Source of the DNA: an uncultured bacterium
GTDB taxonomy: Bacteria > Auribacterota > JACPWU01
DNA: 32,000 nucleotides
Assembly (NCBI GenBank): GCA_964640155.1
Contig: CAZXEQ010000005.1
Span: 150,001-182,000, forward strand
Direction: 5' to 3'
A program made the position numbers and the translations under genes. Numbering within the stretch: the first letter of the stretch is position 1; every line of letters starts with the position of its first letter. Shown one piece after another: positions 1 through 30,796 of the stretch. The notes beneath the pieces were generated by a model that was not told the origin of the DNA, did no database searches, and was given only the letters and a program-made list of their open reading frames with translations.

Positions 1-575
1 TTTTACAAAATCTAATCTATCTCGATCATCCATGGCCACACTATTGCCTAAAATAAAAGACATCATCCCCAAATCTTGTCCATGTCCAAAAATTAGTAAT
101 TTCTGTCCCTGATGCCGAGCTTCAAGTTGCTCATAAACATGTTCTGATCGTCTTAAGGCTTCAATTCCAGATTCAGAAACACCAGGAGCCTCCACTCCAA
201 AGTCTTCACCAGAATTAAAACGCTCATATAACTCTGGATTTGTCTGACCGCATTCTTCTTTAGTCTTACCACTCCAGTCTCCCCATGCCATTTCTTTTAA
301 ATTCGGTTCTATGTGAATGGGAAGTTCTACGCCTACCCTTTCTCTGACCAAATCCTGAAAAACTTGTGCTGTTGCATACGCACAATTTAAAGGACTGGAG
401 TAAATAATAGGCAAGCGGCCCGCACGAATATCTTTTTCATATTTGAAGTATAAATTCTCTGCAATTTGTTTGGCCTGCTGTTGACCTACATCATTTAGAG
501 AAATATCCACTCCCCCTGGATAACGATTCTCTATATTCCAATCTGTCTGACCATGAGGAATCAAAGTATAACTAT
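1..575 (-). other. Histidine phosphatase (phosphoglycerate-mutase-like) domain of giant B, truncated by the window edge
   Basis: Translation YTLIPHGQTDWN...ISLNDVGQQQAKQIA...IIYSSPLNCAYATAQ...LKEMAWGDWSG...APGVSES...LLIFGHGQ follows the RHGxTxWN ... SSPLxRAxxTA ... ExxxGxWEG ... GES ... SHG layout of the histidine phosphatase superfamily. Confidence 0.7.
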
Positions 576-3500
576 TATTGGCCTTAAATCCAAAATTAGC
601 TCCGGGCCTTAATCCCCCTGTATTAGGATCAAAAATAAAACGTTTATTTAGTCGAATTTGATCTAAAAACTCACCCGCCTCTATAATACCTTCAAGGTCT
701 AAAACAAATTTTCCAAAATCTATGATTTCTCTAATCAATATTTTGGCATCCTCTTTTGCTAAATCAGACTCTAGTTTTCTGATCTTATCTGCTGTCTGTT
801 TGTCGAGAGGCAGAAACTCATGAACCATTTCATGTGAAAAACCTGTAAAGAAAAGGGCTTGGCGATGGAGAGGATCAGAAATATTTAAAAGTCCAAGCAA
901 ATTGCAATAAACTTTGGCAGGTTTTTTGGATTCTTCAGAATCTTTATCGGATGAACCCCGATCTCTTTCGTGATTTCCAAAAAGGGTTTTATATCTTTTG
1001 TCTTTAACATCAGAGCCAAATGCAAGTTCTATTGGACCATTGAGATCTTTTCTACCTTTTAACTTCTCTCGATCTCGAATTGTCTTACTGAGTTTTTTAT
1101 AAAACTCCTCTCGAGTAGAGACTGGAGACTGGGAATCGGTAACAGTCAATCCCATCATCCTTTCAAACGCCTGAACCTTTGAATCACTCCCATCTGGGAG
1201 TTGAACCTCTCCATTTGTCATTGTGAATGTGATAGAACTCCCATCCAAAGCTTCATGGATCGCTTGCTCTTCTTTTTTTAAATCAGAAACTTTCAAACCC
1301 TCTCTGACTTCTGCACTGAAATTAAAAACTTCCGTATTGGACAAAGCATTCTCAGCTGCGGACGGCAAATCTCTATCCTCCGCTTTATGAATATAGATTT
1401 GGGCCAACCATGCTCGATGCAATTTTAAAAGCAGTCTTCCAATATTCCACTTTAATTCCGTTCCTTGCTCCCTAATAGAAGGGAGTATCGTCTTATTATA
1501 TTCCCATCCTAAAACTTCGCTTAAAGCAACTTTGAAATCATCATAGTGTTGAATAACCTCTTCCATCGCATCAGCAAATTTAGCCTGATCTTCAACCTCT
1601 AATTCCCAAAGTAATCCTTTCAAGTCTGTAATCATTCTCGCTAACTGCTTATAAAACTCAGCGAGTTCAGGATTTTCTCGAGCTACTCTTTTATAAAGAT
1701 ACGGCCGATCATTTCTTTTTTTTGTATTCACTTGAGGATCTCTCTTTTGAGGAGCTTTCTGTTGAGCCTCACGTGAAAGTAATGTCAATTCATCACGAAT
1801 GTTTCTCAAACGTTGTTTAAGTTCTACTCCTTTTTTAAAATCTTGTGATTTTTCCAATTGATCAATTTCTAAAGAAAGCTGTTGGAATTCTACATATAAA
1901 TCCTCAGCTTTTTTCACCTCTTCAGCCGCCCACGGTTCTCCTTTCATTCCCAGAGGAGGATATTTTAAAAGAGGGTCAAACATCTTCTCGACATGATTTC
2001 TAAATTTTTCTAATGCCAATATTTTTCTAAATACAGGATCTGCAATCAAACACGCATCATGCATTGCATTTGAAAAAGAAATACTATCCAAGCTTTGACT
2101 CATTTCTTCAGAGTTAACTTCCACCCATAAAACACCAGAACGGTAATCCATCTTAGCTCTTAAGGCATGAACTTTAGGGTTAATTCGAAATTGAATTTTT
2201 GGCAAACGATACTTCAAATTAGCTAATATTTTTCGTCTTACATAATTTTTACGATCTGAAAGCCCGTCCTTGCGCGAAGGATCTAGGAGCAAATCAAAAG
2301 CATTTACGAGTTTTTGTTTTAGTCGGTCAGTAGCTTCCCCTTCTTCAAATCCTTCAAGGGTCACATTTTCTTTCATTCTTAATTTACGAGCAATTTTCCA
2401 AAATCGTTCAATCGTTCTTCTCTCTCCTTTACGAAACAAATGATATCCTCTAACACCATCGGCCTTTTCATGATCCATCAAGGCTAACAGCGTATCTTGA
2501 TGCTTCTTACCTGCCTTCAATGCCCATTCAGAGAGGAAAACAGTGGGAATACCTTCAAATTCTTTAGATTTTTGCTGTTTACCTGCGTGTCCTAAAACAA
2601 GAGTAGCATCAAATACATTTGTATCATTTCCCCCTCTTATAGGGATCACATATCGATACCCTTTGCTGTCTTTGCCTCGTGTTTGATCAAGAAGTTCCAA
2701 ATAAGATTTAGTTTTTACTAAATTTTGATCCCGATCTTCTCGAACTACTAACTGGTCGGTCCAATAGTCAATGGCAGCATCTCGTTCTACATCACCCTGG
2801 ATATTTTTTGCAATCTCTTCAATAATTTCTTTGACCGAAAGATTTTGAAAACCCTTTTTATGCCACTGATTTAGATTTGTATCACTGACCGCTAATACAT
2901 GCCCCTGTTCAAAACTTTGTTTCAATGCAGTATGAATATACTCTTCTTCATCCAATCCTCTCACTGCAACATCTTTGGAATTTAGCTCTATACCGACTTC
3001 TCTCAAAAAATCTTTCATCATCTCTTGTTTTTCAGGTTTAAGACAATATTCAATGGAATAAGAGTGTTTCCTCAATTCATCTTTCAAAAGAACAGATTGT
3101 TGAATCATTTCTAAAGCTTTTGTACGATCGATCAAAATCAAAAAATAAAAAGTAAAACTAGGAAGTCCAAAGATATCTGACGCACACAACGTATTTAAAT
3201 ACTGCAAAAAGCTTTCTCGTTTATTTTCATCCTCATACATACCCACTAAAGCTTTAGCAATCTTTTTCCCAATCATGGCCTGAATCAACACACGATCCGG
3301 CATCAGATCTTCTCTATTTTCTCCCACATTAAAATGTTCATCCAAAAGAGCTGAAGCTTCTTCAAGCTCTGTACGATTCAAAAGCATTTCAGTTGCTTCA
3401 TCCAACGCTTGATCTCCCGTCTCTGGGAACATATGCCGTGTTGTTGTAGAAAGACCGTAACCCACTTCTATTAAACCATCAGGTTCCAATTTCTGCGCCA

Positions 3501-6186
3501 TCCTTGCAAGAACAGCTGGCATTTCTTTAGAAGGGAAAGCAACATGTCGAAGTGAAATAAAATCAAATTTTTCTTCTTGAGCCACTCGATCAACATCTTT
3601 ATCGCTCGTTACATCCATAGAATCAAAACGAAAATGAATTCCTTCTCCCTCAAAAATATCTTTTCTAATCCAGAAAAACCCATAGCGATCTTTATTAAAA
3701 AATTTGCTAGCTCTTTCTAAAGTCTCTGATTCACTAAAATCTGATGCACGTTCTGGTTCTGGAAGTACATGGGATGCAGCATACGGTCCACCTTCACGGG
3801 CAACAGCAACTAACTCCGAACGTAAATCTGTGATAACAATTTCTACATGAGGATGAATACCAGTTCTAGCTGAAAAAGCTGCGTCAGAAAAAACCCCAAC
3901 ATCATAACCTTCTGCACCATTGCTAGCTCCTACAATCAAACATTTAATAGGACCTCTGGGGTGTGTGCGGATCTCAGATTCAACGATTCTTCTAAGATAT
4001 TTTCCATCACGCCCAAAATAAGTTTTCTGACGCACGAGTGCTTTTTTGTAAATAGAAATGTAGACTGTTAAATCTTTCGCAAAAGCTTCTGAAACTTCTC
4101 TTGCTTCCTCTCCATAAACATCCCCACGATATTGATAATCTGATTCTAATCCCTCTAAAAACTCTCCTGCTAGAGCATCTCCATTTCTTTGGGCAACAAT
4201 TAAACGATGTATATATCTTTGAATTCTTAATGGAATAAAATTAAATCCATCGGAAAATCTCCAACGCACAAAAGCCTCCGCCCCTGCAACAGCTTCTGGA
4301 TGTGAGACCGTACAACCCTCCATCCAAGGCACCACAGCTTGGCCTGTTTTAGGTTTTACTTCTTCCATTGCTTCATGAATCAATAAAGAGAGCAAAAATT
4401 CTACCCTGTCATGAAAAAGATTTTCCCCTATAGCTTCGTTATAATCATGAATCGTTTCGTAATCCTCTTGATTCACAATAATATGTAAAATACCGTTCTC
4501 AACATAGCGTCTGGCTTGAACATCCTTCACATCCTTCGAACGATAAAATTTTATTCTTCCTTCAGCCAAAGCTCTTTGAATACGCTTAAGGGCTTCTTCA
4601 TATTTTGAATGTTGAGACAGACCAGGTGGGGTTCGATCACGAGACAATTGATCCAATTCTTTTCGCTTTAAAATTTCTTCTATTGCTGCCTGTATTTCCG
4701 TCTCTTTCTCTATCGGTTCTGCTTGAGATAAATCAATTTCATCAGATACAGTACAATGTCCTTCTACAGGAGAACCCACATATTTTGCTGCTCCTGAAAT
4801 TGATCGTTCCGATTCTTTTGCTCGTGCGACCAACGAATCAGATGTTCTTTGAATCGCAGAAATACTGCGAGAGGGATCTTGCATATTAGAGATAAGAAGT
4901 TCTTTATATTGTTCCACCCAATAATCATTAAATCCTGCTTTTCTTAATCTTTCTAAAATCCTACTTAAGAGTTGATTTCTCTGATTATAATCTCCCATTC
5001 TCTTCAATACTTCATCCAAAACTTCATGCCTTTCTTCCTCTGAGTTAAAACTTAAATAAGGGTAAACTAGTTTGAAATATTCTTTAATTTCATCTACATC
5101 TCCTCCATCAAACACTGCTAACTCTTTTAGCGCTTTTTCAAATCTATCCTCCTTAGTTTCGATCTTTGAAAGATCTATCAAACTAACTCTTCCAGAACCA
5201 TCCACATGAAATAAAAGATGTTTCGGTTTAACATCTATAAGGCTTGTCATCAACATGAGCATTGCTAATTCTATTTTTTGTTCTCTCGTCATCATTTCAC
5301 ATGGATTACTGCTTGTTTCAGATTCCTGATATTCTGTAACCATATAAACTTCAGGTACTATCCCCCACCAAAGATCTCTCATTTGATATGTGACAGCAGG
5401 GGGAGATTGAATAACCGAAAGACCTAATTTCTCCATTACAATTCTGACGAAAATTTCATTATAAAGAGCGTCGAACCCCTTCTCCATTCCGGAAAGAAAG
5501 CCTGTATCAGAATCTCGCTTCACAACATACTTCTTCCCATTAATTTCAACAACTCTCGCATCCCCAACGGTTCCTCCTAGTCGTTCACCATTTAAAGTAT
5601 GAGGGAACACCCCGTCAAAAAGCACTCTCACTTGATCCTCATTTAAAATGGCATTGTGGAGCTTTGACACTACAACTTCTTTAGTTTTAGCAAAATAATC
5701 TCTAACCATTTGAGTTAATACAGAGTCTTTGCCAAAAGCTTTTTCCATCGAGGTTATCCAAAGTTGAACTTGAGCAGGATTTGAGCCATCTGCTTCTGGA
5801 AAATTAATAAAAAGAGATAACAACCGAAAGAGAGCATTTTGCTCTCTTTCATCGAGCTCTGACCAAATCTTCGAAAGCCAAGATTCAAAAATATCTCGCG
5901 GAGATAGTCCTTTCCTAAGACCCTCTCTAAACTCACGAATCATGATATCTTCAAGAACAGAACGCTTATCTGCTGCAATATCTGACCATCTGTCTCCTGT
6001 GACAAGAGGAGTCTGTAAGGTTTCTTTAGATACTTGCGGATCAAATATTATCTGATCAATTGAAGAGTCTGCAAAAGCGTTTTTGAGGTCAATTCCCGAA
6101 AAGTCGAAAAAGAAGGTTAAAGAAAGACATATGGACAATGCCTTCGTCATAAAAGGTTTTAAACTATATTGAAATAACATCCCCAT
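1..6186 (-). CDS. Giant multidomain protein B, N-terminal 2062 codons; the C-terminus lies beyond the left edge and the ORF is absent from the supplied track
   Basis: Hand translation of the minus frame in phase with ATG 6186-6184 gives MGMLFQYSLKPFMTKALSICLSLTFFFDFSGIDLKNAFADSS... and I met no stop down to position 1. In-frame TGA TGA TAA at 6240-6232 close the frame upstream. Phase was re-checked at KCLIVGAS (about 3940), DVKPK (about 5230), HEMVH (834-820) and PHG (558-550), all in register. If there were an internal stop, the complete ORF from 6186 to that stop should appear in the track, and it does not. Alternative starts are 6180 and 6150. Confidence 0.85.
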   Translation of the reverse strand, partial: MGMLFQYSLKPFMTKALSICLSLTFFFDFSGIDLKNAFADSSIDQIIFDPQVSKETLQTPLVTGDRWSDIAADKRSVLEDIMIREFREGLRKGLSPRDIFESWLSKIWSELDEREQNALFRLLSLFINFPEADGSNPAQVQLWITSMEKAFGKDSVLTQMVRDYFAKTKEVVVSKLHNAILNEDQVRVLFDGVFPHTLNGERLGGTVGDARVVEINGKKYVVKRDSDTGFLSGMEKGFDALYNEIFVRIVMEKLGLSVIQSPPAVTYQMRDLWWGIVPEVYMVTEYQESETSSNPCEMMTREQKIELAMLMLMTSLIDVKPKHLLFHVDGSGRVSLIDLSKIETKEDRFEKALKELAVFDGGDVDEIKEYFKLVYPYLSFNSEEERHEVLDEVLKRMGDYNQRNQLLSRILERLRKAGFNDYWVEQYKELLISNMQDPSRSISAIQRTSDSLVARAKESERSISGAAKYVGSPVEGHCTVSDEIDLSQAEPIEKETEIQAAIEEILKRKELDQLSRDRTPPGLSQHSKYEEALKRIQRALAEGRIKFYRSKDVKDVQARRYVENGILHIIVNQEDYETIHDYNEAIGENLFHDRVEFLLSLLIHEAMEEVKPKTGQAVVPWMEGCTVSHPEAVAGAEAFVRWRFSDGFNFIPLRIQRYIHRLIVAQRNGDALAGEFLEGLESDYQYRGDVYGEEAREVSEAFAKDLTVYISIYKKALVRQKTYFGRDGKYLRRIVESEIRTHPRGPIKCLIVGASNGAEGYDVGVFSDAAFSARTGIHPHVEIVITDLRSELVAVAREGGPYAASHVLPEPERASDFSESETLERASKFFNKDRYGFFWIRKDIFEGEGIHFRFDSMDVTSDKDVDRVAQEEKFDFISLRHVAFPSKEMPAVLARMAQKLEPDGLIEVGYGLSTTTRHMFPETGDQALDEATEMLLNRTELEEASALLDEHFNVGENREDLMPDRVLIQAMIGKKIAKALVGMYEDENKRESFLQYLNTLCASDIFGLPSFTFYFLILIDRTKALEMIQQSVLLKDELRKHSYSIEYCLKPEKQEMMKDFLREVGIELNSKDVAVRGLDEEEYIHTALKQSFEQGHVLAVSDTNLNQWHKKGFQNLSVKEIIEEIAKNIQGDVERDAAIDYWTDQLVVREDRDQNLVKTKSYLELLDQTRGKDSKGYRYVIPIRGGNDTNVFDATLVLGHAGKQQKSKEFEGIPTVFLSEWALKAGKKHQDTLLALMDHEKADGVRGYHLFRKGERRTIERFWKIARKLRMKENVTLEGFEEGEATDRLKQKLVNAFDLLLDPSRKDGLSDRKNYVRRKILANLKYRLPKIQFRINPKVHALRAKMDYRSGVLWVEVNSEEMSQSLDSISFSNAMHDACLIADPVFRKILALEKFRNHVEKMFDPLLKYPPLGMKGEPWAAEEVKKAEDLYVEFQQLSLEIDQLEKSQDFKKGVELKQRLRNIRDELTLLSREAQQKAPQKRDPQVNTKKRNDRPYLYKRVARENPELAEFYKQLARMITDLKGLLWELEVEDQAKFADAMEEVIQHYDDFKVALSEVLGWEYNKTILPSIREQGTELKWNIGRLLLKLHRAWLAQIYIHKAEDRDLPSAAENALSNTEVFNFSAEVREGLKVSDLKKEEQAIHEALDGSSITFTMTNGEVQLPDGSDSKVQAFERMMGLTVTDSQSPVSTREEFYKKLSKTIRDREKLKGRKDLNGPIELAFGSDVKDKRYKTLFGNHERDRGSSDKDSEESKKPAKVYCNLLGLLNISDPLHRQALFFTGFSHEMVHEFLPLDKQTADKIRKLESDLAKEDAKILIREIIDFGKFVLDLEGIIEAGEFLDQIRLNKRFIFDPNTGGLRPGANFGFKANNSYTLIPHGQTDWNIENRYPGGVDISLNDVGQQQAKQIAENLYFKYEKDIRAGRLPIIYSSPLNCAYATAQVFQDLVRERVGVELPIHIEPNLKEMAWGDWSGKTKEECGQTNPELYERFNSGEDFGVEAPGVSESGIEALRRSEHVYEQLEARHQGQKLLIFGHGQDLGMMSFILGNSVAMDDRDRLDFVK
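665..1430 (-). other. HExxH (zincin-like) module of giant B, paralogous to 10960-11640 in giant A
   Basis: FNFSAEVREGL...ITFTMTNGEV...FGSDVKDKRYKTLFGNHERD...FFTGFSHEMVHEFL...LAKEDAKILIREI aligns by eye with the giant A segment HFSAEVNEGL...VTFTVTNGDI...FGSDRTQKEYRTLFGNHKTD...FLTGMSHETVHEFL...LAEEDARILQREI. The HEMVH codons are at 834-820. Confidence 0.5.
3465..3990 (-). other. CheR-type SAM-dependent methyltransferase-like domain of giant B
   Basis: IKCLIVGASNGAEGYDVGV (compare CheR iWSAGCSTGEEPYSiA), EIVITDLRSELVAVAREGGPY (compare i.ATDId...L..Ar.G.Y), and KFDFISLRHVAF...VLARMAQKLEPDGLIEVGYG (compare fDlIfCRNVlIYF...vl..l...L.pgG.L.lG). Confidence 0.55.
5150..5600 (-). other. Atypical protein-kinase-like domain of giant B
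   Basis: LGGTVGDARVVEINGKKYVVKRD looks like a Gly-rich loop plus the beta3 lysine. ALYNEIFVRIV is helix-C-like, VYMVTEYQE hinge-like, SLIDVKPKHLLF a DxKPxN-type catalytic loop with His in place of Asn, and RVSLIDLSK a DFG position reading DLS. Confidence 0.4.
5675..6000 (-). other. N-proximal module shared by both giants (giant B copy), function unknown
   Basis: REFREGLRKGLSPRDIFESWLSKIWSELDEREQNALFRLLSLFINFPEADGSNPAQVQLWITSMEKAFGKDSVLTQMVRDYFAK aligns without gaps to the giant A segment DDLREGLAQGRSPRQIFEGWLSRIWDGLDEQEHTSLRTLLSQFVNFPEANASNPTQAKIWLDMMNKAFGEDSVLTQIVREYFES. About 50 of 84 positions are identical by hand count. Confidence 0.8.
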
Positions 6187-6330: not shown

Positions 6331-9300
6331 TTAAGCTGCAACCTCAATTTCAGCCGGAGATCTTAAAACATGAGGAACACTTCGTGGCAACCCTGAAACT
6401 GCCTTTAAAACAGATTTTTTTAGAGAAATAGCGGTATCCGAAAGAGGTTGATACGCTTCCAACGCACGATCAAGCGCTTCTACAGAAGCTTGTGCAGAAT
6501 CTAATTTTGACTTCAAAATCTCTGCTAATTGATGTGTTAACTCTTTTAAGAATTGATCCCTTACTGATCCATCTAATATTGCATCTGCCCGTCTGGCACC
6601 TTCGGCTATCGCTCCTGCAAAATCGAAAGAATTACTAGCTTGTCGATAAGAAGCTAAAAAAGTTCTTATTTCTCCTTTTAGGACTTCTAAAGAATTCATC
6701 GTACTGAGAGGCGTCGCTTCGGTCCCTTTTTCCTCTTTCAACTCAATCTGATTCAATTCAAGTTCTACACTCTGTCCACTTTCATCTTTTAACCAATGGA
6801 TTTGAAGTGTCCCCTTCTCTTCATCGTAACTTAACAACTCTGGGAATGTATTCGATAACTCATTGAGATCTCTTAAGTAATATTCATAATCTCCTTCCGT
6901 TAAGTCTATTCTCCTTTGCCCTCTTAACACTCTCTCATGCAGTTCTTCTAACAAATGATAATCCTCTTCACCCATCGCCTTCTCTTTACTTCGATCCTTC
7001 ATTATTAAATATTCTTCTATTTTCTTAATTTTCTCTGCATCCAATGTCAGTTTTGTTCCTTGCCCTATTTCTCTTTCAAGGCTCTTGTTTTTCTTTTGTA
7101 TGGCTTCTCTTAAGGTGTAGTAACCTTGTACTACTTGCTCTGTCCAAAATCTATCAAAGGCCTCCAACCCTTCTGCCTCTAGTTTTTCTTTGAACAGTAT
7201 GGCAAAAGAGCGATCCTGTTCTGTATGTTTTGCATTTCTTAATGTCTTCATATCTCCAACTAAGATGAGTCGATCTGAAGCTCGACTCAATGCTACATTC
7301 AGCCGATTGATATTGGCGACAAAGCCTACTTTGCTTGGATCTGGGTTACTTCTTACAAAGCTATAGATGACTACTGCATTTTCTCTTCCCTGATAACTAT
7401 CTACAGTCCCTATCTGGCTTTCTACGATAGCTTGTGCCTCATCTTTCTTCATCTTTCTTTCTCTTATTAGATAGTCTCTTATCTTTTCTCTGATTAACTC
7501 TACCTGCGATTGATACGCTGATAATATACTTATCTGTTCTGATCTATACCCAGATGCCAATGCCCTTTTGTATTCTTCTAAGCATTTGTTTGCTTCTTCT
7601 GTGTTTTGATAGCTTGTACCCCTAGCTTCTTCATTGCCTGAAGCTTTTTTCATAGGGACATCAACTCTTCTTACTGTGTCTTCTTCCATCATTCGCCATG
7701 TCTTAGGAACCATCATTTTGTTATAAATGAGTCGGCCTATCATGACGGATATCACAGGATGGCTTCTATAGTTACGAGCTAAAAATGTTTGGGCTTGTCC
7801 TTTGTTCCATCTTCTTGCCATTCCACTTTCTTGGATCATTGCCCGATAGATGTCTGTTTGACCTTTCATCGCAGCTTCATCTATAAATGGCTCTAATTGT
7901 AAATGGTCTCCTGCTAAGATGATCTTTTCTTTTGCTTTTGCTCCTGCCAATACCGTATCTATCTCATTGACGGTTCCTGCTTCATCTATAATGACAACAT
8001 CATATTCTTGATCTGCCGTCTCCGGCACTCGATACATGGAGTCTGTTGTGACTCCAACCACATATCCCTTTCCATTTGTTTTCCTTTTCTTAAACTCTTT
8101 CATTCCTTCCCCGTTATAGCCATCCTCCCTTGCTTGATTCCACACTTGATATTTTCTTAGAGACTCTATAACTCGATCATCTCCTCTTCCTTCTTCTCCT
8201 CGACTATACGCTCTTAAAATAGGAACTTTATTTCGATCCAGTCGCTCTAATACATTGTCTACGGCCAGATTTGTCCGACTGACCACCAATACTCTCTTGC
8301 CTTGCTTCACCAGCTGCTGTGCTATTTCTACCACTGTTGCGGTCTTCCCACTTCCTGCTCCTCCTTGTATCAACGCTACTTTTGTCCTAGGATGTAAGGC
8401 CATCCTTACAGCATTGGATTGGAATGGATCTTGAGCTACTCTTTCATCTTGGATCTGAATCTTACTTTTCTCTTCGCTGATTTCTTCTTTATTGATTGTC
8501 TCTGGTTTTTCAAGCCCTAAAAGTTCTCTCGTTGCTCGACTTAAACCATTTCTTACTTGAGCTTTTCCTCCGATTGCTCTGAGCCTCTCTATTTGTATAG
8601 CTCTTAAGGCAACATTATTGCCTAGCTCTTTTTCTTTGCCTTCAACCATCTCTTTTAATTCTCCCAAAACGTTTTTCAGCTCCTTACTCTGAGAGCTATG
8701 TCCTACCTCTCCGGGTAGTTTTAATGATGTTACTTTGGCTTCTCTGTTATATTCTTCATCTAAGATGCTTATTTCTGGTAATGCAATTCCAAATCGCCGG
8801 GCTGCTTCTAGAAGCGATTCATTGGGCTCTTTTCCATTGAGCAATGCCCAGCTGTCATTCGTTAGTCCTCTCCTTACTCTATCCTCTAACGCTTGCTCTA
8901 CCAGACCGGGACTGGAATACCCTTGCGCTTTCATCACCCGCAACATCCAATGTCCATGTATAGGTGATTTAATCAGTCGACTTAATCGCGTGATCATTCT
9001 ACCTTCAACTTCTCTTTGCGTCTCATAAATCCATTCTTCTAATGTTTCATCATAAAATCGTCTCACTTTTACTTTGCCAGGTTTTCCAATTCCTGTGGAA
9101 AGTATAGCTTTCTTGTGCTTTCCATCATCAGTCCAAGAAAAATGGACTCTACCACCGCTATACACTTCTGTTTTCCATTCCAAAGGTTCAAACCCATCCT
9201 TATTTTGGACATCTTGAGCCTTAAGCTGTTGAATAACTTTTTCTTTATTGCGATCAAATATTTCAAGCTTCCAGAAATTTTTGCCCTCTTCCTTAACCAA

Positions 9301-12300
9301 TCTAGATTGTTTTACAATTTCTTTTTGATTTTCTCCCTTCCCTTCTACTCGACGCGTCTCATATACCCACTCTTTCAGATCTTCATCATAAAATCGGCTC
9401 GCCTGAACTCTTCCCTTTTTCATAGTGCCCGTAGCAAGACGAGCTCTCTTTTTCTGTCCATTGTCTATCAAAGAAAAATTAATTTGTCCGTAATTGTCTG
9501 ATTCTGTTTCCCACTGCAGGGGCTCAAACTTATCCTTATTTTGGGCATCTTGGGCCTTAAGATGTTGAATAACTTTTTCTTTATTGCGATCAAACATTTC
9601 AAGCTTCCAGAAATTTTTGCCCTCTTCCTTAACCAATCTAGATTGCTTTACAATTTCTTTTTGATTTTCTCCCTTCCCTTCTACTCGACGCGTCTCATAT
9701 ACCCACTCTTTCAGATCTTCATCATAAAAACGCCTCACTTTCACTTGTCCTTTTTTATTAACTCCTGTGGAAAGACGAACTTTTTCTATGTGTGCATTGT
9801 CCCTCCAAAAAAAGCCAACTAATCCAGCACTATCTGTATCTACAGTCCACTCCATAACCTCAAACGCATCCTTATTCTTGGCATCTTGGGCCTTAAGTTG
9901 TTGAATAACCTTCTCTTTATATCTATCAAATATTTCAAACTTCCAGAAATTTTTACCCTCTTCCTTAACCAGTCGTGATTGTCTAATTATCTCTTGCTTA
10001 TTTTCCCCTTTCCCCTCTACACGCTGAGTCTCATACACCCATTCTTTAAGATCTCTATCATAAAAACGCCTTACTTGAACTTGGCCTTTTTTCCCAGTCC
10101 CTGTAGAAAGATAGACCTCGTTTCTCTGTTCATTATCGGTCCAAAAAAAACCAACTAATCCAGCACTATTTGTCTCTACAGTCCACTCTAAGGGTTCAAA
10201 TGTATCTTCATTTTGAGCATCTTGGGTCTTAAGCTGTTGAATAACCTTTTCTCTATAACGATCAAAGACTTCGAATTGCCAATAACCTTGGCCTTCTTCC
10301 TTAACCAGTCGTGATTGTCTAACGATCTCTTCTTGTTTTTCTCCATCTCCTTCTACACGTCGCGTCTCATAAATCCATTCTTTGAGCTCTTCATCATAAA
10401 ATCGTCTTACTTGTACTCGGCCTTCTTTAGCAATGCCTGTGGAAAGATTCACTGTCTTTTGCTGTTCCTTATCCGTCCAAGTAAAACTGATTAATCCTTT
10501 ACTATCCGTATCTACAGTCAACTCTAGAGACTTAAATACATCCTTATTCCGAGCATCTTGAGTTTTAAGTTGCTGAATAATTTTCTCTTTATTGCGATCA
10601 AACCTTTCAAAATGCCAGTGATTTTGACCTTCTTCCTTAACCAGTCGTGATTGTCTAACGATCTCTTCTGCTTTTCCTTCTACACGTCGAGTCTCATAAA
10701 TCCATTCTTTGAGCTCTTCATCATAAAATCGTCTCACCTGAGCTCTGCCGGTTTTAGCAATCCCCGTAGAAAGAATAACTGTCTTTTTCTGTTTATTGTC
10801 CGTCAAAAAAAATTTGACTTGACCATAAGCACTTGTATCTGTGATCCATTCAATGGGCTCAAATGCAGTAGGTGACTGATCATCCAATTGTCGAAGTTGG
10901 CGCAAAACATCTACTCTTGCTTCTTTAGCTTCTAGCTTGCGATATTGCACTTCTTTCATCAAAGCTCCAGGTTTTATAACTCCATACAGATCAAATAAAA
11001 ATGGATTTAATTGTTTTATTTCTCTCTGTAATATTCTCGCATCTTCTTCTGCAAGCTCTTTTTCTAATATCTCTTCATCAGGTTGCTCTCCAATTGGTGA
11101 TTTCTTCAAAAATTCATGTACGGTTTCATGAGACATTCCAGTTAAAAACGATGCTCTACGATGGGTTTTATCTTTGATATTCAAAAAGGCAAGGATATTG
11201 ATGTAGTATTGGCCATCTGTTTTATGATTACCAAAAAGGGTTCGGTATTCTTTTTGGGTTCGATCCGATCCAAAATGAAGGGTAAATGGCCCAGCTGTTA
11301 ATTCTATTCCCTGTAATCTATGTCGACTTCGAATAATTTTCCCCAATTCTGCATAAAACTCATCACGACTCATGTCTGTTCCCACACCCATGGCCTTTTC
11401 CAAGCGTTTTAATTCTGGACTTTCATCAAATTTAATATCTCCATTCGTTACAGTAAACGTGACGTTTTTCCCATCCAATGCCTGATACGTTTCTGCATCT
11501 TCTGCCTCCGTTGGAGCAGCAAGGCCTTCGTTAACTTCAGCACTAAAATGGGCAATCTTTATCGTTTTATTTTCTTCGTATGTTCCCTTTCGCATATCAT
11601 TCTTAAATTGTAAATATCCCCATAGGGTTAATCTACGTTCTTTCCAAATCTTATTTCTATTATCTAATTGCTCCAAATGCTGTTTATATCTGGGCGTCTT
11701 TATATCATCCCTAGTTGCAAGTAATCGAGATAATTGACGATCTTGAGCTTCTTTTGTTAACTGGACAATTAATTCTTCATTAGCCTCACCTTGTTTATAT
11801 TCTCTCTTCACCCCTTCAAAAAAATCACGATCCAAATATCCATGCAAAGCTTGAAAATAGTAATTTGTCTCTACTTTTCTCAACTCTTCTATAGAGGCTT
11901 GAATAGATGTTATAATATTTTCTAATTCTGATTCATCAGCCCTTCCCTTTACAACTTGATTTAATAACTCAAAAAGTTTTTCTTCTTCTTTGCGTTCGAT
12001 CTCTTGTCTCCTCTGAATATCAGCAAGAAGTCCCAAAACGCTTCTTTCTTCTAAAAGATAAATTTGCTTACGGGTATATTGGGGAATTGCATTTTCATAA
12101 CTAAACGCTACAGAAACCCCTCGATCAACTTTTTTGTCGTTTCTTCCTTCATAATTCATTAATACATAATCAACTTCATGTAATGCTTTATTTCCGATTG
12201 CTACTACCTCTTCATCGCCTTTCGTTGCCGCCGCTTCTCCACCTTTTCTTCCATAGTGACATAAGGCCGTCGTTACAGCATGCGTTACATATTTGGCTTC

Positions 12301-18891: not shown

Positions 18892-18965
<74 letters not shown>

Positions 18966-19062: not shown

Positions 19063-19134
19063 GCCAGGGTAGCTCAGAGGTAGAGCGGGGCTCTCATAAG
19101 GCCTAGGTCGTGGGTTCGATTCCCCCCTCTGGCA
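19063..19134 (+). tRNA. tRNA with anticodon CAT (elongator Met, or Ile2 that needs lysidine; undecided)
   Basis: GCCAGGGTAGCTCAGAGGTAGAGCGGGGCTCTCATAAGGCCTAGGTCGTGGGTTCGATTCCCCCCTCTGGCA folds as a cloverleaf. The acceptor is GCCAGGG/CTCTGGC, the D stem GCTC/GAGC, the anticodon loop CTCATAA and the T loop TTCGATT. There is one T:C mismatch in the T stem. Confidence 0.8.
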
Positions 19135-30630: not shown

Positions 30631-30796
30631 CTCTTATCCAGAGTGGCTGAGGGAAAGGCCCGATGATGCCACGGCAACCGCTCCGATAATAATCGGGGGC
30701 CAGGTGCTAACTCCTCTATTCAAAGGAATTAAGCTTTGAATGGAAAGATAAGAAAAGGTCCATTTCAACCTCTTCTTATCGAAGAGGTTTTTTTTT
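30631..30796 (+). promoter_or_regulatory. SAM-I (S-box) riboswitch with terminator expression platform
   Basis: CTCTTATCCAGAGTGGCTGAGGGAAAGGCCCGATGATGCCACGGCAACC...CAGGTGCTAACTCC...GGAAAGATAAGAA matches the conserved S-box core (CTTATCnAGAG, GAGGGA, GGCCCGATGA, GCAACC, GGTGCTAA, AGATAAGA). The terminator is AACCTCTTC-TTATC-GAAGAGGTT plus a T-run (30767-30796). The P1 3' strand GATAAGAA (30747-30754) can instead pair with TTCTTATC (30773-30780) as an antiterminator. Confidence 0.9.

What the first reader, a model, noticed from the sequence alone, without database searches (positions are those of the whole stretch)
8917..10863. Six tandem copies of an unrecognised 112-aa domain immediately upstream of the helicase
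The period is exactly 336 nt for four consecutive units. The unit has a conserved core (LSTGxxKxGxVxVRRFYDExLKEWxYETRRVEGK ... SRLVKEEGxNxW) and variable N-terminal strands. I cannot match it to any repeat family I know (not Ig-like, RHS/YD, TPR, LRR or PKD by motif). Arrays of small domains next to a helicase could be nucleic-acid or ligand-binding modules.
Basis: seen in the sequence. Interest (0 to 1): 0.65.

Follow-up and report, generated by a model that had tools for sequence, protein, structure and literature searches.

The report
New repeat domain beside giant-protein helicase
Six tandem copies of a previously undescribed ~112-residue protein domain sit just before an RNA/DNA helicase inside a 3,164-residue bacterial protein; the domain matches no known family or solved structure and is very rare, but its function is still only inferred.

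Summary
Window 8926-10929 (minus strand) encodes six head-to-tail units (109, 112x4, 111 aa; spacing 336x4 then 327 nt) inside one 3,164-aa ORF (6331-15825). The units are old, selected duplicates (72-83% nt identity, dN/dS 0.12-0.55). The longest exact shared stretch is 83 nt, so assembly collapse or expansion is unlikely.

The unit matches no Pfam, NCBIfam, PADLOC or PDB sequence. AlphaFold2 with a 49-unit alignment gives pLDDT 95 and pTM 0.86: one helix, then a seven-stranded antiparallel meander. Foldseek finds nothing in the PDB (best E 0.15, TM <=0.35).

An exhaustive HMMER search of 1.84 billion representative proteins found 14 true relatives. Nearly all carry 2-7 copies, mostly in giant multidomain proteins of uncultured lineages (Chlamydiota and Spirochaetota where named). 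Four relatives plus one truncated genomic locus share the cassette array + conserved linker + Upf1/MkoA-like SF1 helicase + C-terminal module. Other relatives join the array to methyltransferase, GGDEF or HTH domains, or carry it alone.

Best reading: a new α/β repeat domain forming a semi-rigid accessory arm of the helicase cargo. A binding or tethering role is inferred, not shown, and charge data argue against generic nucleic-acid binding. This is a new domain family within a known kind of architecture; interest is moderate.

The parts
6331..15825 (-). Single 3,164-aa ORF ('giant 1') that contains the whole finding
   Evidence: ORF list. Its relatives are giant multidomain proteins of Chlamydiota, Ca. 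Auribacterota, Omnitrophota and Elusimicrobia that share only 13-20% of the query; for the one relative aligned in detail (P0017) the shared parts are the N-terminal and pre-cargo modules.
15721..15792 (-). The one strongly hydrophobic segment (aa 12-35): a signal peptide or signal anchor
   Evidence: Kyte-Doolittle scan; only one other window, at aa 646, passes the threshold. The protein has 4 Cys in 3,164 aa, against 0.7-2.1% in neighbouring proteins.
10930..12771 (-). Pre-cargo module (aa 1019-1632) ending just before unit 1; it carries an HExxH motif (SHETVHEF, aa 1566-1570, window 11116-11130)
   Evidence: 32% identical to a module present twice in Chlamydiota P0017. Its last ~210 aa are 40% identical to the segment just before the His_Phos_1 cargo of the neighbouring giant ORF.
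10603..10929 (-). Unit 1 (aa 1633-1741, 109 aa): helix plus seven β-strands
10267..10602 (-). Unit 2 (aa 1742-1853, 112 aa)
9931..10266 (-). Unit 3 (aa 1854-1965, 112 aa)
9595..9930 (-). Unit 4 (aa 1966-2077, 112 aa); with the following helix it was the query of the high-confidence structure model
   Evidence: AlphaFold2 pLDDT 95.0, pTM 0.86: H3-13, seven strands, H115-131
9259..9594 (-). Unit 5 (aa 2078-2189, 112 aa)
8926..9258 (-). Unit 6 (aa 2190-2300), the diverged terminal unit. It keeps the β4-β6 core but is not followed by the inter-unit helix.
   Evidence: 31-43% identity to units 1-5. The last unit scores lowest in P0003, P0004 and P0005 too.
9532..9723 (-). Block in unit 4 (old phase, aa 2035-2098) that is 98-100% identical in DNA to window 9196-9387 in unit 5: a gene-conversion or recent partial-duplication tract
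   Evidence: Sliding nt identity of u4 vs u5 runs from 0.57 up to 1.0. The longest exact match is 83 nt, 9311-9393 vs 9647-9729.
8431..8925 (-). Conserved linker (aa 2301-2465) between array and helicase, with the motif ..W.LL.G..PN..LLEAARRFGI.LP.ISVLD.EYNREAEV.S.K.PG
   Evidence: Conserved in P0003, P0004, P0005 and P0015 and in L001. The first ~110 alignment positions have no PDB match.
7216..8430 (-). Upf1-like superfamily-1B helicase core (aa 2466-2870; motif I GAGSGKT at 8341-8361, motif II DEAG at 7975-7986)
   Evidence: Pfam AAA_11 2e-21 and AAA_12 8e-35. PDB profile hits: UPF1 2e-40, IGHMBP2 2e-39, then ZNFX1, Aquarius, DNA2, Sen1. PADLOC MkoA 1.4e-57.
6646..7215 (-). C-terminal module that accompanies the helicase (aa 2871-~3060; ..ELHERxLxG.., ..YDEE...L...WL.D..G..)
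   Evidence: The same motifs follow the helicase in P0003, P0004, P0005, P0015 and L001, seen by reading the sequences.

Best explanation
What it is (shown; confidence about 0.9). The feature is a real, protein-coding array of six copies of a previously undescribed ~112-aa α/β domain. Each copy has an N-terminal helix ending in a D/N-P cap, a loop carrying a conserved aromatic residue, and a seven-stranded up-and-down antiparallel sheet. The family signature is W..T...G...F...L.TG....G.V.VRR.YD..L..W.YET.R......I...SRL. In the model only one residue separates the last strand of a unit from the helix of the next. The array lies in the cargo part of a 3,164-aa protein that has a single N-terminal signal or anchor segment and almost no cysteine. 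Together with a conserved 165-aa linker, an Upf1/MkoA-like SF1B helicase and a C-terminal module, it forms a cassette that recurs in four other proteins and one truncated genomic locus from several uncultured lineages.

How it most likely works (inferred; confidence about 0.35-0.4). The six units stack into a semi-rigid, non-catalytic arm. The arm serves as a multivalent accessory platform for the helicase cargo, holding or recruiting the helicase's substrate (single-stranded RNA or DNA, or a ribonucleoprotein) or a partner protein. The conserved β4-β6 core provides the fold. The faster-evolving β1-β3 strands provide surfaces that differ from unit to unit. Copy number changes by unequal recombination, and gene conversion partly homogenises the copies.
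For: The array is real and under selection: six in-register copies; dN/dS 0.12-0.55 overall, 0.05-0.28 in β4-β7 and 0.3-0.7 in β1-β3. It is a new family: no Pfam, NCBIfam or PADLOC match to the unit, and PDB profile hits all have E >= 0.45. It is a well-defined fold: pLDDT 95.0 and pTM 0.86 with the 49-unit alignment, the N-terminal helix scoring 95-98, and only one residue between strand 7 and the next helix. Foldseek finds no relative in the PDB (best E 0.15, TM <= 0.35) or in the viral structure library BFVD (searched with the earlier pLDDT-86 model). It is rare: 16 hits in 1.84e9 representative proteins, of which one is the protein itself and one is a WD40 false positive, leaving 14 true relatives. 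Coupling to the helicase: P0003 (7 units), P0004 (5), P0005 (4) and P0015 (3) all have array, the same linker and the same helicase, at 45-49% identity over linker plus helicase for the three aligned. In 185,579 species genomes the only other helicase of this subfamily, L001 at 39%, has the same linker and a degenerate unit before its contig ends; all other helicases found are <= 30% identical. Every member of this helicase subfamily found therefore carries the array. In four of the five helicase-linked proteins the units nearest the helicase are the most basic: here net charge +3, +4, +6 against +1, -2, -2 for units 1-3. Ongoing recombination: a ~190-nt tract of 98-100% identity between units 4 and 5, and units more alike within a protein than between proteins here and in P0004 and P0007.
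Against: No binding activity or ligand is shown; the mechanism is inference from architecture. The array is not helicase-specific. It also precedes UbiE-type methyltransferase + GNAT (P0007, P0013), GGDEF + HAD (P0012), HTH (P0011) and unknown cargo (P0010, P0016), and it occurs alone in 455-462-aa Spirochaetota proteins. Total charge of helicase-linked arrays runs from -27 (P0003) to +12 (P0005), and units 2-3 here have pI 5.3-5.4, unlike typical nucleic-acid-binding arrays. By strand-register reasoning, several of the conserved charged residues (R66/E79, R67/Y78, Y69/W76) pair with each other across strands, which suggests a structural rather than a ligand-contacting role. The conserved cassette may reflect a single ancestral fusion that then spread, so recurrence across phyla is weaker evidence than independent fusions would be. 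Model coordinates could not be inspected, so inter-unit rigidity and surface properties are inferred from secondary structure and confidence values only.
Confidence: 0.4

Rival explanations
1. Passive spacer or stalk. The array binds nothing. It is a rigid rod that sets the distance between the pre-cargo (HExxH) module and the helicase or other cargo, as repeat stalks do in large surface proteins.
For: Copy number varies from 3 to 7 among helicase-linked proteins and 2 to 6 elsewhere. The same array is joined to unrelated cargo domains. Surface charge is highly variable. The connection between units is one residue. Conserved charges appear to pair within the sheet. The 2026 Omnitrophota preprint describes 'tandem-repeat scaffolds' as a common class among giant proteins.
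Against: Polar and charged positions are unusually well conserved across very distant units at 24% mean identity: R67, D70, E79, T80, R82, S97, R98, and the T-G and G turns. dN/dS is 0.05-0.28 in the core. Every helicase of this subfamily found carries the array. Stand-alone four-unit proteins exist in which there is nothing to space.
Confidence: 0.3
2. Targeting or ligand-sensing module independent of the helicase. Each unit binds a component of a host or prey cell, or a small molecule, and so localises or regulates whatever cargo follows. The variable β1-β3 strands would be the recognition surface.
For: The array occurs with many cargo types and alone. β1-β3 evolve about three times faster at nonsynonymous sites than the core. 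The protein has an N-terminal signal or anchor segment and 0.13% Cys, which hints at export. Related giant proteins come from host-associated or predatory lineages.
Against: No region reaches dN/dS > 1 except one helix comparison that involves the atypical first unit. No similarity to any known ligand-binding fold; PH-like, PilZ and lipocalin matches all have TM <= 0.35. No conserved pocket-type motif was identified.
Confidence: 0.2
3. A highly diverged copy of a known small domain (Pcf11 C-terminal domain, PH-like/Pru, PilZ, or a MORN-type hairpin repeat) that current profiles fail to recognise.
For: Pfam Pcf11_C reaches 32.6 bits for the whole protein, above its 26.7 cut-off, by summing six weak hits. 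It is also flagged 'faint' for P0002. The best PDB profile hits are Pcf11 5m9z (E 0.45) and the Rpn13 Pru domain (E 0.7). phrog_27020 matches the same hairpin. The order of secondary-structure elements, seven meander strands then a helix, resembles the PH-like order.
Against: No single unit gives a significant match: Pcf11_C scores E 0.16 and 12.3 bits over 16 residues. Pcf11_C is a CCHC zinc-binding domain (PMC5737669), and all six units have no cysteine. The same RR[FY][YF]DEEL.EW hairpin occurs in HK97-type phage capsid proteins, which shows it is a recurrent short motif. Foldseek with a pLDDT-95 model finds no PH, PilZ or lipocalin match above TM 0.35, although these folds are abundant in the PDB.
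Confidence: 0.08
4. Assembly artefact, or a non-coding DNA repeat read by chance as protein.
For: Tandem repeats with a 336-nt period can be mis-assembled, and a ~190-nt tract is nearly identical between units 4 and 5. Reads were not available.
Against: Copies differ by 17-28% in DNA, and the longest exact shared stretch is 83 nt, shorter than ordinary short reads. The frame stays open for 9,495 nt. Synonymous differences far outnumber nonsynonymous ones. The protein is recorded on a 186-kb contig. Independent relatives from other samples carry arrays of the same domain.
Confidence: 0.02

Closest known systems
Upf1-like SF1B helicases with accessory domains (UPF1, IGHMBP2/SMUBP-2, ZNFX1, Aquarius, Sen1; bacterial Mokosh MkoA)
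   Same: The adjacent helicase core is a clear member: Pfam AAA_11/AAA_12, UPF1 2e-40 and IGHMBP2 2e-39, MkoA 1.4e-57. In these proteins, non-catalytic domains flanking the core modulate substrate binding (established knowledge of UPF1 CH domain and IGHMBP2 R3H).
   Different: None of them carries this domain or any tandem array of ~110-aa α/β units. No PLD nuclease or Ser/Thr kinase was detected, and these define Mokosh. Here the helicase is embedded in a 3,164-aa protein with an N-terminal signal or anchor segment.
Giant or very long multidomain proteins of Omnitrophota and other PVC-group bacteria ('multi-enzyme' and 'tandem-repeat scaffold' classes; bioRxiv 10.1101/2023.11.21.568195 and 10.64898/2026.06.07.730766)
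   Same: The N-terminal and pre-cargo modules are shared with such proteins from Chlamydiota, Ca. Auribacterota, Omnitrophota and Elusimicrobia. There is an N-terminal signal or transmembrane segment, variable enzymatic cargo, a second giant gene next door, and internal domain repeats whose DNA copies have diverged.
   Different: The repeats described in those papers are known Pfam families (TSP3, WD40, HEAT, TPR, NHL, dockerin). This repeat is not in Pfam, and term searches of those two texts turned up neither it nor a Upf1-like helicase. At 3.2 kaa this protein is much smaller than the >= 10-30 kaa giants studied there.
Arrays of small nucleic-acid-binding domains (six S1 domains of ribosomal protein S1; multi-KH and multi-cold-shock-domain proteins)
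   Same: These are works-like analogues only (from general knowledge): several copies of a ~70-110-aa β-rich module in a row, giving multivalent binding next to or together with RNA-processing enzymes.
   Different: No sequence or fold similarity. Charge is not consistently basic. The connections between units are very short rather than flexible.
[quoted passage not shown]
   Same: A ~25-residue β-hairpin motif is shared: V.G.YDEE.GEWV.K....V.GK against kVrrfYDeelkeWiYEt.r.v.G.
   Different: Pcf11_C binds zinc through CCHC, and the units have no Cys. Only 16-39 residues align, and no single unit is significant. The same hairpin turns up in phage capsid proteins.
Rigid repeat stalks of bacterial surface proteins (SasG G5-E, Rib, SHIRT, bacterial Ig-like arrays)
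   Same: These too are works-like analogues (general knowledge): tandem β-rich modules with minimal linkers, variable copy number, concerted evolution of the copies, and few or no cysteines.
   Different: Different fold and no Pfam match. Here each unit has an integral helix, and the array is internal, lying between an HExxH module and an ATP-dependent helicase.

Membership tests
Pfam Pcf11_C (PF21936) | Significant match of an individual domain to the family HMM | tested here: not met
   A single unit scores E 0.16 and 12.3 bits against a cut-off of 26.7, over 16 residues; three other units give no hit. The whole-protein score of 32.6 bits is a sum with no stretch passing on its own.
Pfam Pcf11_C (PF21936) | CCHC zinc ligands (C564, C567, H596, C599 in yeast Pcf11) | tested here: not met
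   All six units contain no cysteine. Ligands as described in PMC5737669.
PH-like fold (including the Rpn13 Pru domain) | Sequence-profile or structural match to a seven-stranded β-sandwich capped by a C-terminal helix | tested here: not met
   Rpn13 Pru scores E 0.7. Foldseek on the first, pLDDT-86 model lists one PH-like entry, Homer2 EVH1, at E 2.0 and TM 0.22. The top 50 hits for the pLDDT-95 model include no PH, EVH1 or Pru entry, and all have TM <= 0.35. The order of secondary-structure elements is compatible.
PilZ domain | RxxxR and (D/N)xSxxG c-di-GMP-binding motifs in that order; six-stranded barrel plus helix | tested here: not met
   The motifs are absent on inspection of the alignment: the S-T-G turn lacks the D/N and lies before, not after, the RR pair. 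Foldseek to Alg44 PilZ gives TM 0.19-0.21 at E 1.4-1.9.
Known tandem-repeat families (Ig-like/Big, PKD, RHS/YD, MORN, TPR, LRR, WD40) | Pfam HMM match | tested here: not met
   None of these families appears in hmmscan of the whole protein at E <= 1 or of single units at E <= 10. The one WD40 protein pulled in by the profile search was a false positive.
Upf1-like SF1B helicase (applies to the adjacent domain, not the repeat) | AAA_11 + AAA_12 architecture with Walker A (GxGKT) and DEAG motifs, and homology to UPF1/IGHMBP2 | tested here: met
   AAA_11 2.2e-21 and AAA_12 7.9e-35; TIGR00376 IGHMBP2 family 7.8e-48, below its equivalog cut-off; UPF1 2e-40; motifs located.
Mokosh anti-phage system | Upf1-like helicase homologous to MkoA/MkoC | tested here: met
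   MkoA model PDLC03920 scores 1.4e-57, but only its helicase half (profile positions 593-1090 of 1112) is matched.
Mokosh anti-phage system | PLD-family nuclease (a separate MkoB or fused as in MkoC); Ser/Thr kinase domain in type I MkoA | tested here: not met
   No PLD or kinase Pfam hit in the giant protein or in the flanking ORFs. System definition from bioRxiv 10.1101/2022.05.11.491447.
Giant multidomain proteins of Omnitrophota and other PVC-group bacteria | Shared N-terminal module, an N-terminal signal or TM segment, and variable cargo | tested here: met
   73 relatives cover 13-20% of the query. Aa 13-491 and 1019-1653 align at 32% to Chlamydiota P0017. A hydrophobic segment lies at aa 12-35. 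The family has no formal definition, so membership is descriptive.
Array-linker-helicase cassette (defined here) | At least 3 units of this domain, then the LLEAARRFG..LP..SVLD linker, then the FLARNYRSHP-type SF1 helicase and a C-terminal module | tested here: met
   Present in the window protein and in P0003, P0004, P0005/P0089 and P0015. The linker and helicase, preceded by a degenerate unit, are present in L001, whose contig is truncated.

The most novel reading that the evidence does not exclude
The domain is a new fold that forms a modular recognition array. Each unit would use its fast-evolving β1-β3 strands to read a different element of a nucleic acid or a polymeric host or prey target, and the array would guide a Upf1-like helicase that is exported into another cell as an effector. 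That would make it a β-type counterpart of PUF/TALE/PPR-style repeat recognition, coupled to a motor.
Probability: 0.07. Interest if true: 0.85.

Novelty: new variant of a known kind. Interest (0 to 1): 0.5.

Why it matters
Most of the sequence of giant multidomain proteins from Omnitrophota, Chlamydiota and related uncultured bacteria has no annotation, and what these proteins do is an open question. This finding defines one piece of that unannotated sequence. It is a compact, confidently predicted domain with no detectable relative in Pfam or the PDB. It has a clear signature, a 49-unit seed alignment and a small, well-delimited set of carriers. It also defines a conserved cassette (array, linker, Upf1/MkoA-like helicase, C-terminal module) that could be expressed and tested on its own. 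If the array tethers substrate or partner, it would be a new kind of helicase accessory domain. If it is only a rod, it is still a new repeat fold for protein-family databases and a marker for tracing how cargo cassettes move among these giant genes.

Tried and rejected
1. Known-family assignment was rejected. Pfam on the whole protein and on single units, NCBIfam on the whole protein, PADLOC and the PDB sequence profile gave no significant match to the unit. PHROGs gave only short hairpin matches to families of unknown function.
2. Fold assignment failed. Foldseek found nothing below E 0.15 or above TM 0.35 against the PDB with a pLDDT-86 model, against BFVD, or against the PDB with the pLDDT-95 model. 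No AlphaFold DB library was available.
3. The Pcf11_C lead was rejected: no Cys, only a 16-39-residue hairpin aligns, and the same motif occurs in HK97-type phage capsid proteins.
4. The search for homologous proteins with the unit alignments A1 and A3 returned nothing, although the parent proteins are in that collection. I treat this as a tool-sensitivity failure, not as evidence of absence.
5. Genome scan with A1: no locus. Metagenome scan with A1: none. Scan with A4: only phage capsid false positives.
6. Genome scan with the linker+helicase alignment found one true ortholog (L001). The other 68 loci are helicase matches at 22-31% identity, or only short local segments of higher identity, and none encodes the repeat.
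7. Close orthologs for a copy-number comparison do not exist in the collection: the next-best hit is 32% identical over 20% of the protein.
8. Looking up the window's own contig or organism failed: no record for the giant protein or for the ammonium transporter.
9. A test for a consistent basic charge on helicase-linked arrays was negative.
10. A test for positive selection on the variable strands found relaxed constraint (ω 0.3-0.7), not diversifying selection.
11. The plus-strand ORFs inside the array (8735-9028, 9115-9501, 9541-9822) were dismissed as antisense by-products of the repeat.

Full report
**1. Checking the observation**

The region lies inside a single 3,164-aa ORF on the minus strand (window 6331-15825).
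- Tandem Repeats Finder reports a 336-nt period, 4.9 copies and 78% matches at 9174-10812.
- The repeat finder places six copies in register with spacing 336, 336, 336, 336, 327 nt.
- In the protein, RRFYD/SRFYD recurs at aa 1698, 1807, 1919, 2031, 2143 and 2255.
- The units are 109, 112, 112, 112, 112 and ~111 aa. Units 1-5 are 60-77% identical; unit 6 is 31-43% identical and has a different C-terminus.

First, the natural unit starts 21 residues earlier, with a helix (..kvIqqLkaqDa.nkd.FepleW) that also precedes unit 1, so the array is aa 1633-2300, window 8926-10929. Second, a conserved ~165-aa linker separates the array from the helicase.

**2. Coding sequence, not an artefact**

Between units 1-5, DNA identity is 72-83%, dS is 0.3-1.5 and dN/dS is 0.12-0.55. 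Split by region, the β4-β7 core has ω of 0.05-0.28. The β1-β3 strands have ω of 0.3-0.7 and about three times more nonsynonymous change, which confirms 'variable N-terminal strands' but shows no positive selection.

Units 4 and 5 share a ~190-nt tract of 98-100% identity, and units 1 and 2 share a 90-94% tract. These indicate gene conversion or recent partial duplication. The longest exact stretch shared by any two units is only 83 nt, and the protein is recorded on a 186-kb contig. Collapse or expansion during assembly is therefore unlikely, although reads could not be checked. The plus-strand ORFs inside the array are antisense by-products.

**3. What the unit is**

Sequence searches found no known family:
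- No Pfam family matches a single unit significantly. The best hits are HipA_C at E 0.015 and Pcf11_C at E 0.16 for unit 1, and nothing for the others.
- NCBIfam (run on the whole protein) and PADLOC match only the helicase part; PADLOC gives no hit to the unit itself.
- PHROGs gives only short hairpin matches to families of unknown function.

Structure prediction gave a confident model with no known relative:
- AlphaFold2 with only the six paralogous units gave pLDDT 86.
- With a 49-unit alignment from 13 proteins (A3) it gave pLDDT 95.0 and pTM 0.86: helix 3-13, strands 26-31, 37-44, 47-54, 62-70, 75-84, 91-101 and 108-113, then helix 115-131.
- The N-terminal helix is as confident as the core (95-98). 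The second helix is the first helix of the next unit, and it follows strand 7 after a single residue. By inference, consecutive units are tightly coupled.
- Foldseek finds no relative in the PDB for either model (best E 0.84 and 0.15, TM <= 0.35) or in the viral structure library BFVD. The PDB sequence-profile search finds nothing below E 0.45.

The one recurring weak hit is the Pcf11 C-terminal domain. Pfam reaches 32.6 bits only by summing six sub-threshold hits, and PDB 5m9z scores E 0.45. The match is a ~25-residue hairpin. Pcf11_C is a CCHC zinc domain (PMC5737669), the units have no cysteine, and the same hairpin occurs at the C-terminus of HK97-type phage capsid proteins. I therefore reject membership.

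Family-wide conservation highlights:
- the turns T32, G36, T55-G56 and G61;
- hydrophobic positions on both faces of β4-β6;
- a set of charged and aromatic residues: R66, R67, Y69, D70, W76, Y78, E79, T80, R82, S97 and R98.

By hairpin register, several of these pair with each other (R66-E79, R67-Y78, Y69-W76).

**4. Distribution**

An exhaustive HMMER search of 1.84 billion representative proteins with the six-unit profile returned 16 proteins. One is the protein itself and one is a WD40/NACHT false positive, which leaves 14 true relatives, nearly all with 2-7 units. The sources are metagenomes and MAGs:
- Chlamydiota: P0005/P0089.
- Spirochaetota: P0002/P0090, proteins of 455-462 aa made only of repeats.
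- A likely genetic-code-25 lineage: P0015, which has W wherever G is invariant.
- Unnamed JGI, ENA and Logan contigs.

Scans of 185,579 species genomes and of JGI metagenome contigs with unit patterns found no further carrier. No close ortholog of the window protein exists in the 5.8-billion-protein collection; the next-best hit is 32% identical over 20% of the query. Copy number can therefore be compared only among distant relatives: 7, 5, 4, 3 and 6 units in the helicase-linked proteins.

Units are more alike within a protein than between proteins here (62-77% against <= 47%) and in P0004 and P0007, but not in P0003, P0005 or P0010. This points to lineage-specific amplification or concerted evolution in some lineages.

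**5. Context in the protein and the genome**

The protein has one strongly hydrophobic segment (aa 12-35) and only 4 Cys, or 0.13%, against 0.7-2.1% in neighbouring proteins. Its layout, from N- to C-terminus:
- An N-terminal module (aa 13-~510) and a pre-cargo module (aa 1019-1632) are shared with giant multidomain proteins of Chlamydiota, Ca. Auribacterota (Ca. Theseobacter exili), Omnitrophota and Elusimicrobia.
- The pre-cargo module carries an HExxH motif at aa 1566-1570. It ends exactly where unit 1 begins.
- The same module precedes the histidine-phosphatase cargo of the next gene, which is another giant ORF (>2,062 aa, window 1-6186). It occurs twice in P0017.
- After the array come the conserved linker and a Upf1-like SF1B helicase: AAA_11/AAA_12, UPF1 2e-40 and IGHMBP2 2e-39, PADLOC MkoA 1.4e-57 over the helicase half only.
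- A C-terminal module follows, and it is also present after the helicase in the relatives.

No PLD nuclease or kinase was detected, so this is not a Mokosh system as defined by Millman et al.. The flanking genes are ordinary chromosomal genes (MTAP-like phosphorylase, TilS, glycosyltransferase, Amt, GAF histidine kinase, HAD, PolX, MFS).

**6. The helicase link**

P0003, P0004, P0005 and P0015 all have array, the same linker and the same helicase. The three that were aligned are 45-49% identical to the window protein over linker plus helicase. A genome scan with that alignment found only one further member of the subfamily, a Margulisiibacteriota MAG contig (L001, 39%). It has the linker and a degenerate unit upstream before the contig ends. 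The other 68 loci are helicase matches at 22-31% identity, or only short local segments of higher identity, and none encodes the repeat. From the helicase side the association is therefore constant.

From the repeat side it is not. Arrays also precede UbiE-type methyltransferase + GNAT (P0007, P0013), GGDEF + HAD (P0012), HTH (P0011) or unknown cargo (P0010, P0016), or stand alone.

**7. Mechanism**

What is shown: this is a new, well-folded, selected repeat domain that forms part of a conserved helicase cassette.

What is inferred: I think the array most likely forms a semi-rigid, non-catalytic arm that acts as a multivalent accessory platform for the helicase cargo, tethering or recruiting its substrate or a partner. 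The conserved core builds the fold, and the faster-evolving β1-β3 strands differentiate the units. I put this at about 0.35-0.4.

In favour:
- the constant association from the helicase side;
- strong conservation of polar residues across very distant units;
- stand-alone array proteins, which cannot be mere spacers;
- in four of the five helicase-linked proteins, units become more basic towards the helicase.

Against:
- no consistent positive charge, with array net charge from -27 to +12;
- promiscuous cargo partners;
- apparent intramolecular pairing of the conserved charges;
- the possibility that all cassettes descend from one fusion.

The main rival is a passive rigid spacer (about 0.3). 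It is supported by variable copy number, variable surfaces, one-residue connections and the prevalence of repeat scaffolds in such giants. Next come a helicase-independent targeting or ligand module (about 0.2), a diverged known fold (about 0.08) and an artefact (about 0.02).

**8. Comparison with what is known, and novelty**

The architecture is of a known kind: tandem domain arrays inside giant bacterial proteins, and accessory domains flanking Upf1-like helicases. The domain itself has no detectable family or fold relative. Term searches of the two papers on giant Omnitrophota proteins turned up neither it nor a Upf1-like helicase. I classify it as a new variant of a known kind, that is, a new domain family.

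Interest is moderate, 0.5. It gives a clean, testable handle on the unannotated part of PVC-group giant proteins and possibly a new fold, but it does not overturn anything and its function is unresolved.

The most novel reading not excluded is a modular recognition array guiding an exported helicase effector. I give it about 7% probability.

**9. Limits**

- Model coordinates could not be inspected.
- No AlphaFold DB or profile-profile library search was possible.
- The source organism and the reads are unknown.
- The search for homologous proteins returned nothing for alignment queries even though the parent proteins are in its collection (against 35, 36), so those negatives carry no weight.

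Noticed in passing
window 1-6186 (- strand): A second giant ORF (>2,062 aa, running off the window start) lies directly downstream of the first. It has a CheR-like methyltransferase and a histidine-phosphatase domain, its own N-terminal hydrophobic segment and its own promoter-like site (6248-6220). It shares two modules with giant 1 (56% and 40% identity). P0004 is likewise followed by another giant gene (>4,178 aa, MutS_V).
   Followed up: partly
window 10930-12771 (- strand; HExxH at 11116-11130): A ~610-aa 'pre-cargo' module with an HExxH motif ends exactly where the cargo begins in giant 1 (array + helicase). Its last ~210 aa recur before the phosphatase cargo in giant 2. It occurs twice in Chlamydiota P0017, and HExxH-like motifs also precede the arrays in P0004 and P0005. 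It could be a junction or self-processing peptidase module of these giant proteins.
   Followed up: partly
window 6331-15825 (- strand): The 3,164-aa protein has only 4 cysteines (0.13%), against 0.7-2.1% in the neighbouring housekeeping proteins, and a single N-terminal hydrophobic segment. This hints that an ATP-dependent helicase is exported or membrane-anchored, which would need explaining.
   Followed up: partly
P0015 (relative; 1,292 aa): Tryptophan replaces otherwise invariant glycines throughout (e.g. WSPWSWKS for GxPGSGKS). This is the signature of a code-25 organism (UGA = Gly; Gracilibacteria/Absconditabacteria-like) translated with UGA = Trp. The cassette therefore also occurs in a candidate-phyla-radiation lineage.
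   Followed up: no
L074-L078 (metagenome contigs): The hairpin motif RR[FY][YF]DEEL.EW also sits at the C-terminus of what look like HK97-type phage major capsid proteins (identified by eye; no family search was run on them). It also appears in the Pcf11 C-terminal domain and in phrog_27020. It is a recurrent short β-hairpin motif that produces misleading sub-threshold hits.
   Followed up: partly
window 9196-9387 vs 9532-9723: A ~190-nt tract is 98-100% identical between units 5 and 4, while the rest of those units is 57-72% identical. This is a gene-conversion or recent partial-duplication tract inside an otherwise old array.
   Followed up: yes
window 7216-8430 (- strand): The best defence-database match for the helicase core is Mokosh MkoA (1.4e-57), but there is no PLD nuclease or kinase in the protein or its neighbours. 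It is homologous to a defence helicase without the defence-system context.
   Followed up: partly
window 30631-30754 (+ strand): A SAM (S-box) riboswitch (77 bits, E 1e-16) lies upstream of a plus-strand ORF that runs off the window end.
   Followed up: no
window 18892-18965 and 19063-19134 (+ strand): Two tRNA-Met (CAT) genes lie about 100 nt apart, between tilS and a glycosyltransferase gene.
   Followed up: no
window 15954-15995: A 21-nt unit repeated twice (80% match) sits in the AT-rich spacer between the MTAP-like gene and giant 1, just upstream of a promoter-like site for giant 1 (15920-15892, - strand).
   Followed up: no
window 8735-9028, 9115-9501, 9541-9822 (+ strand): ORFs of 93-128 aa lie on the strand opposite the array. 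Two of them resemble each other because they are antisense to repeated units, so they are very likely not genes.
   Followed up: partly
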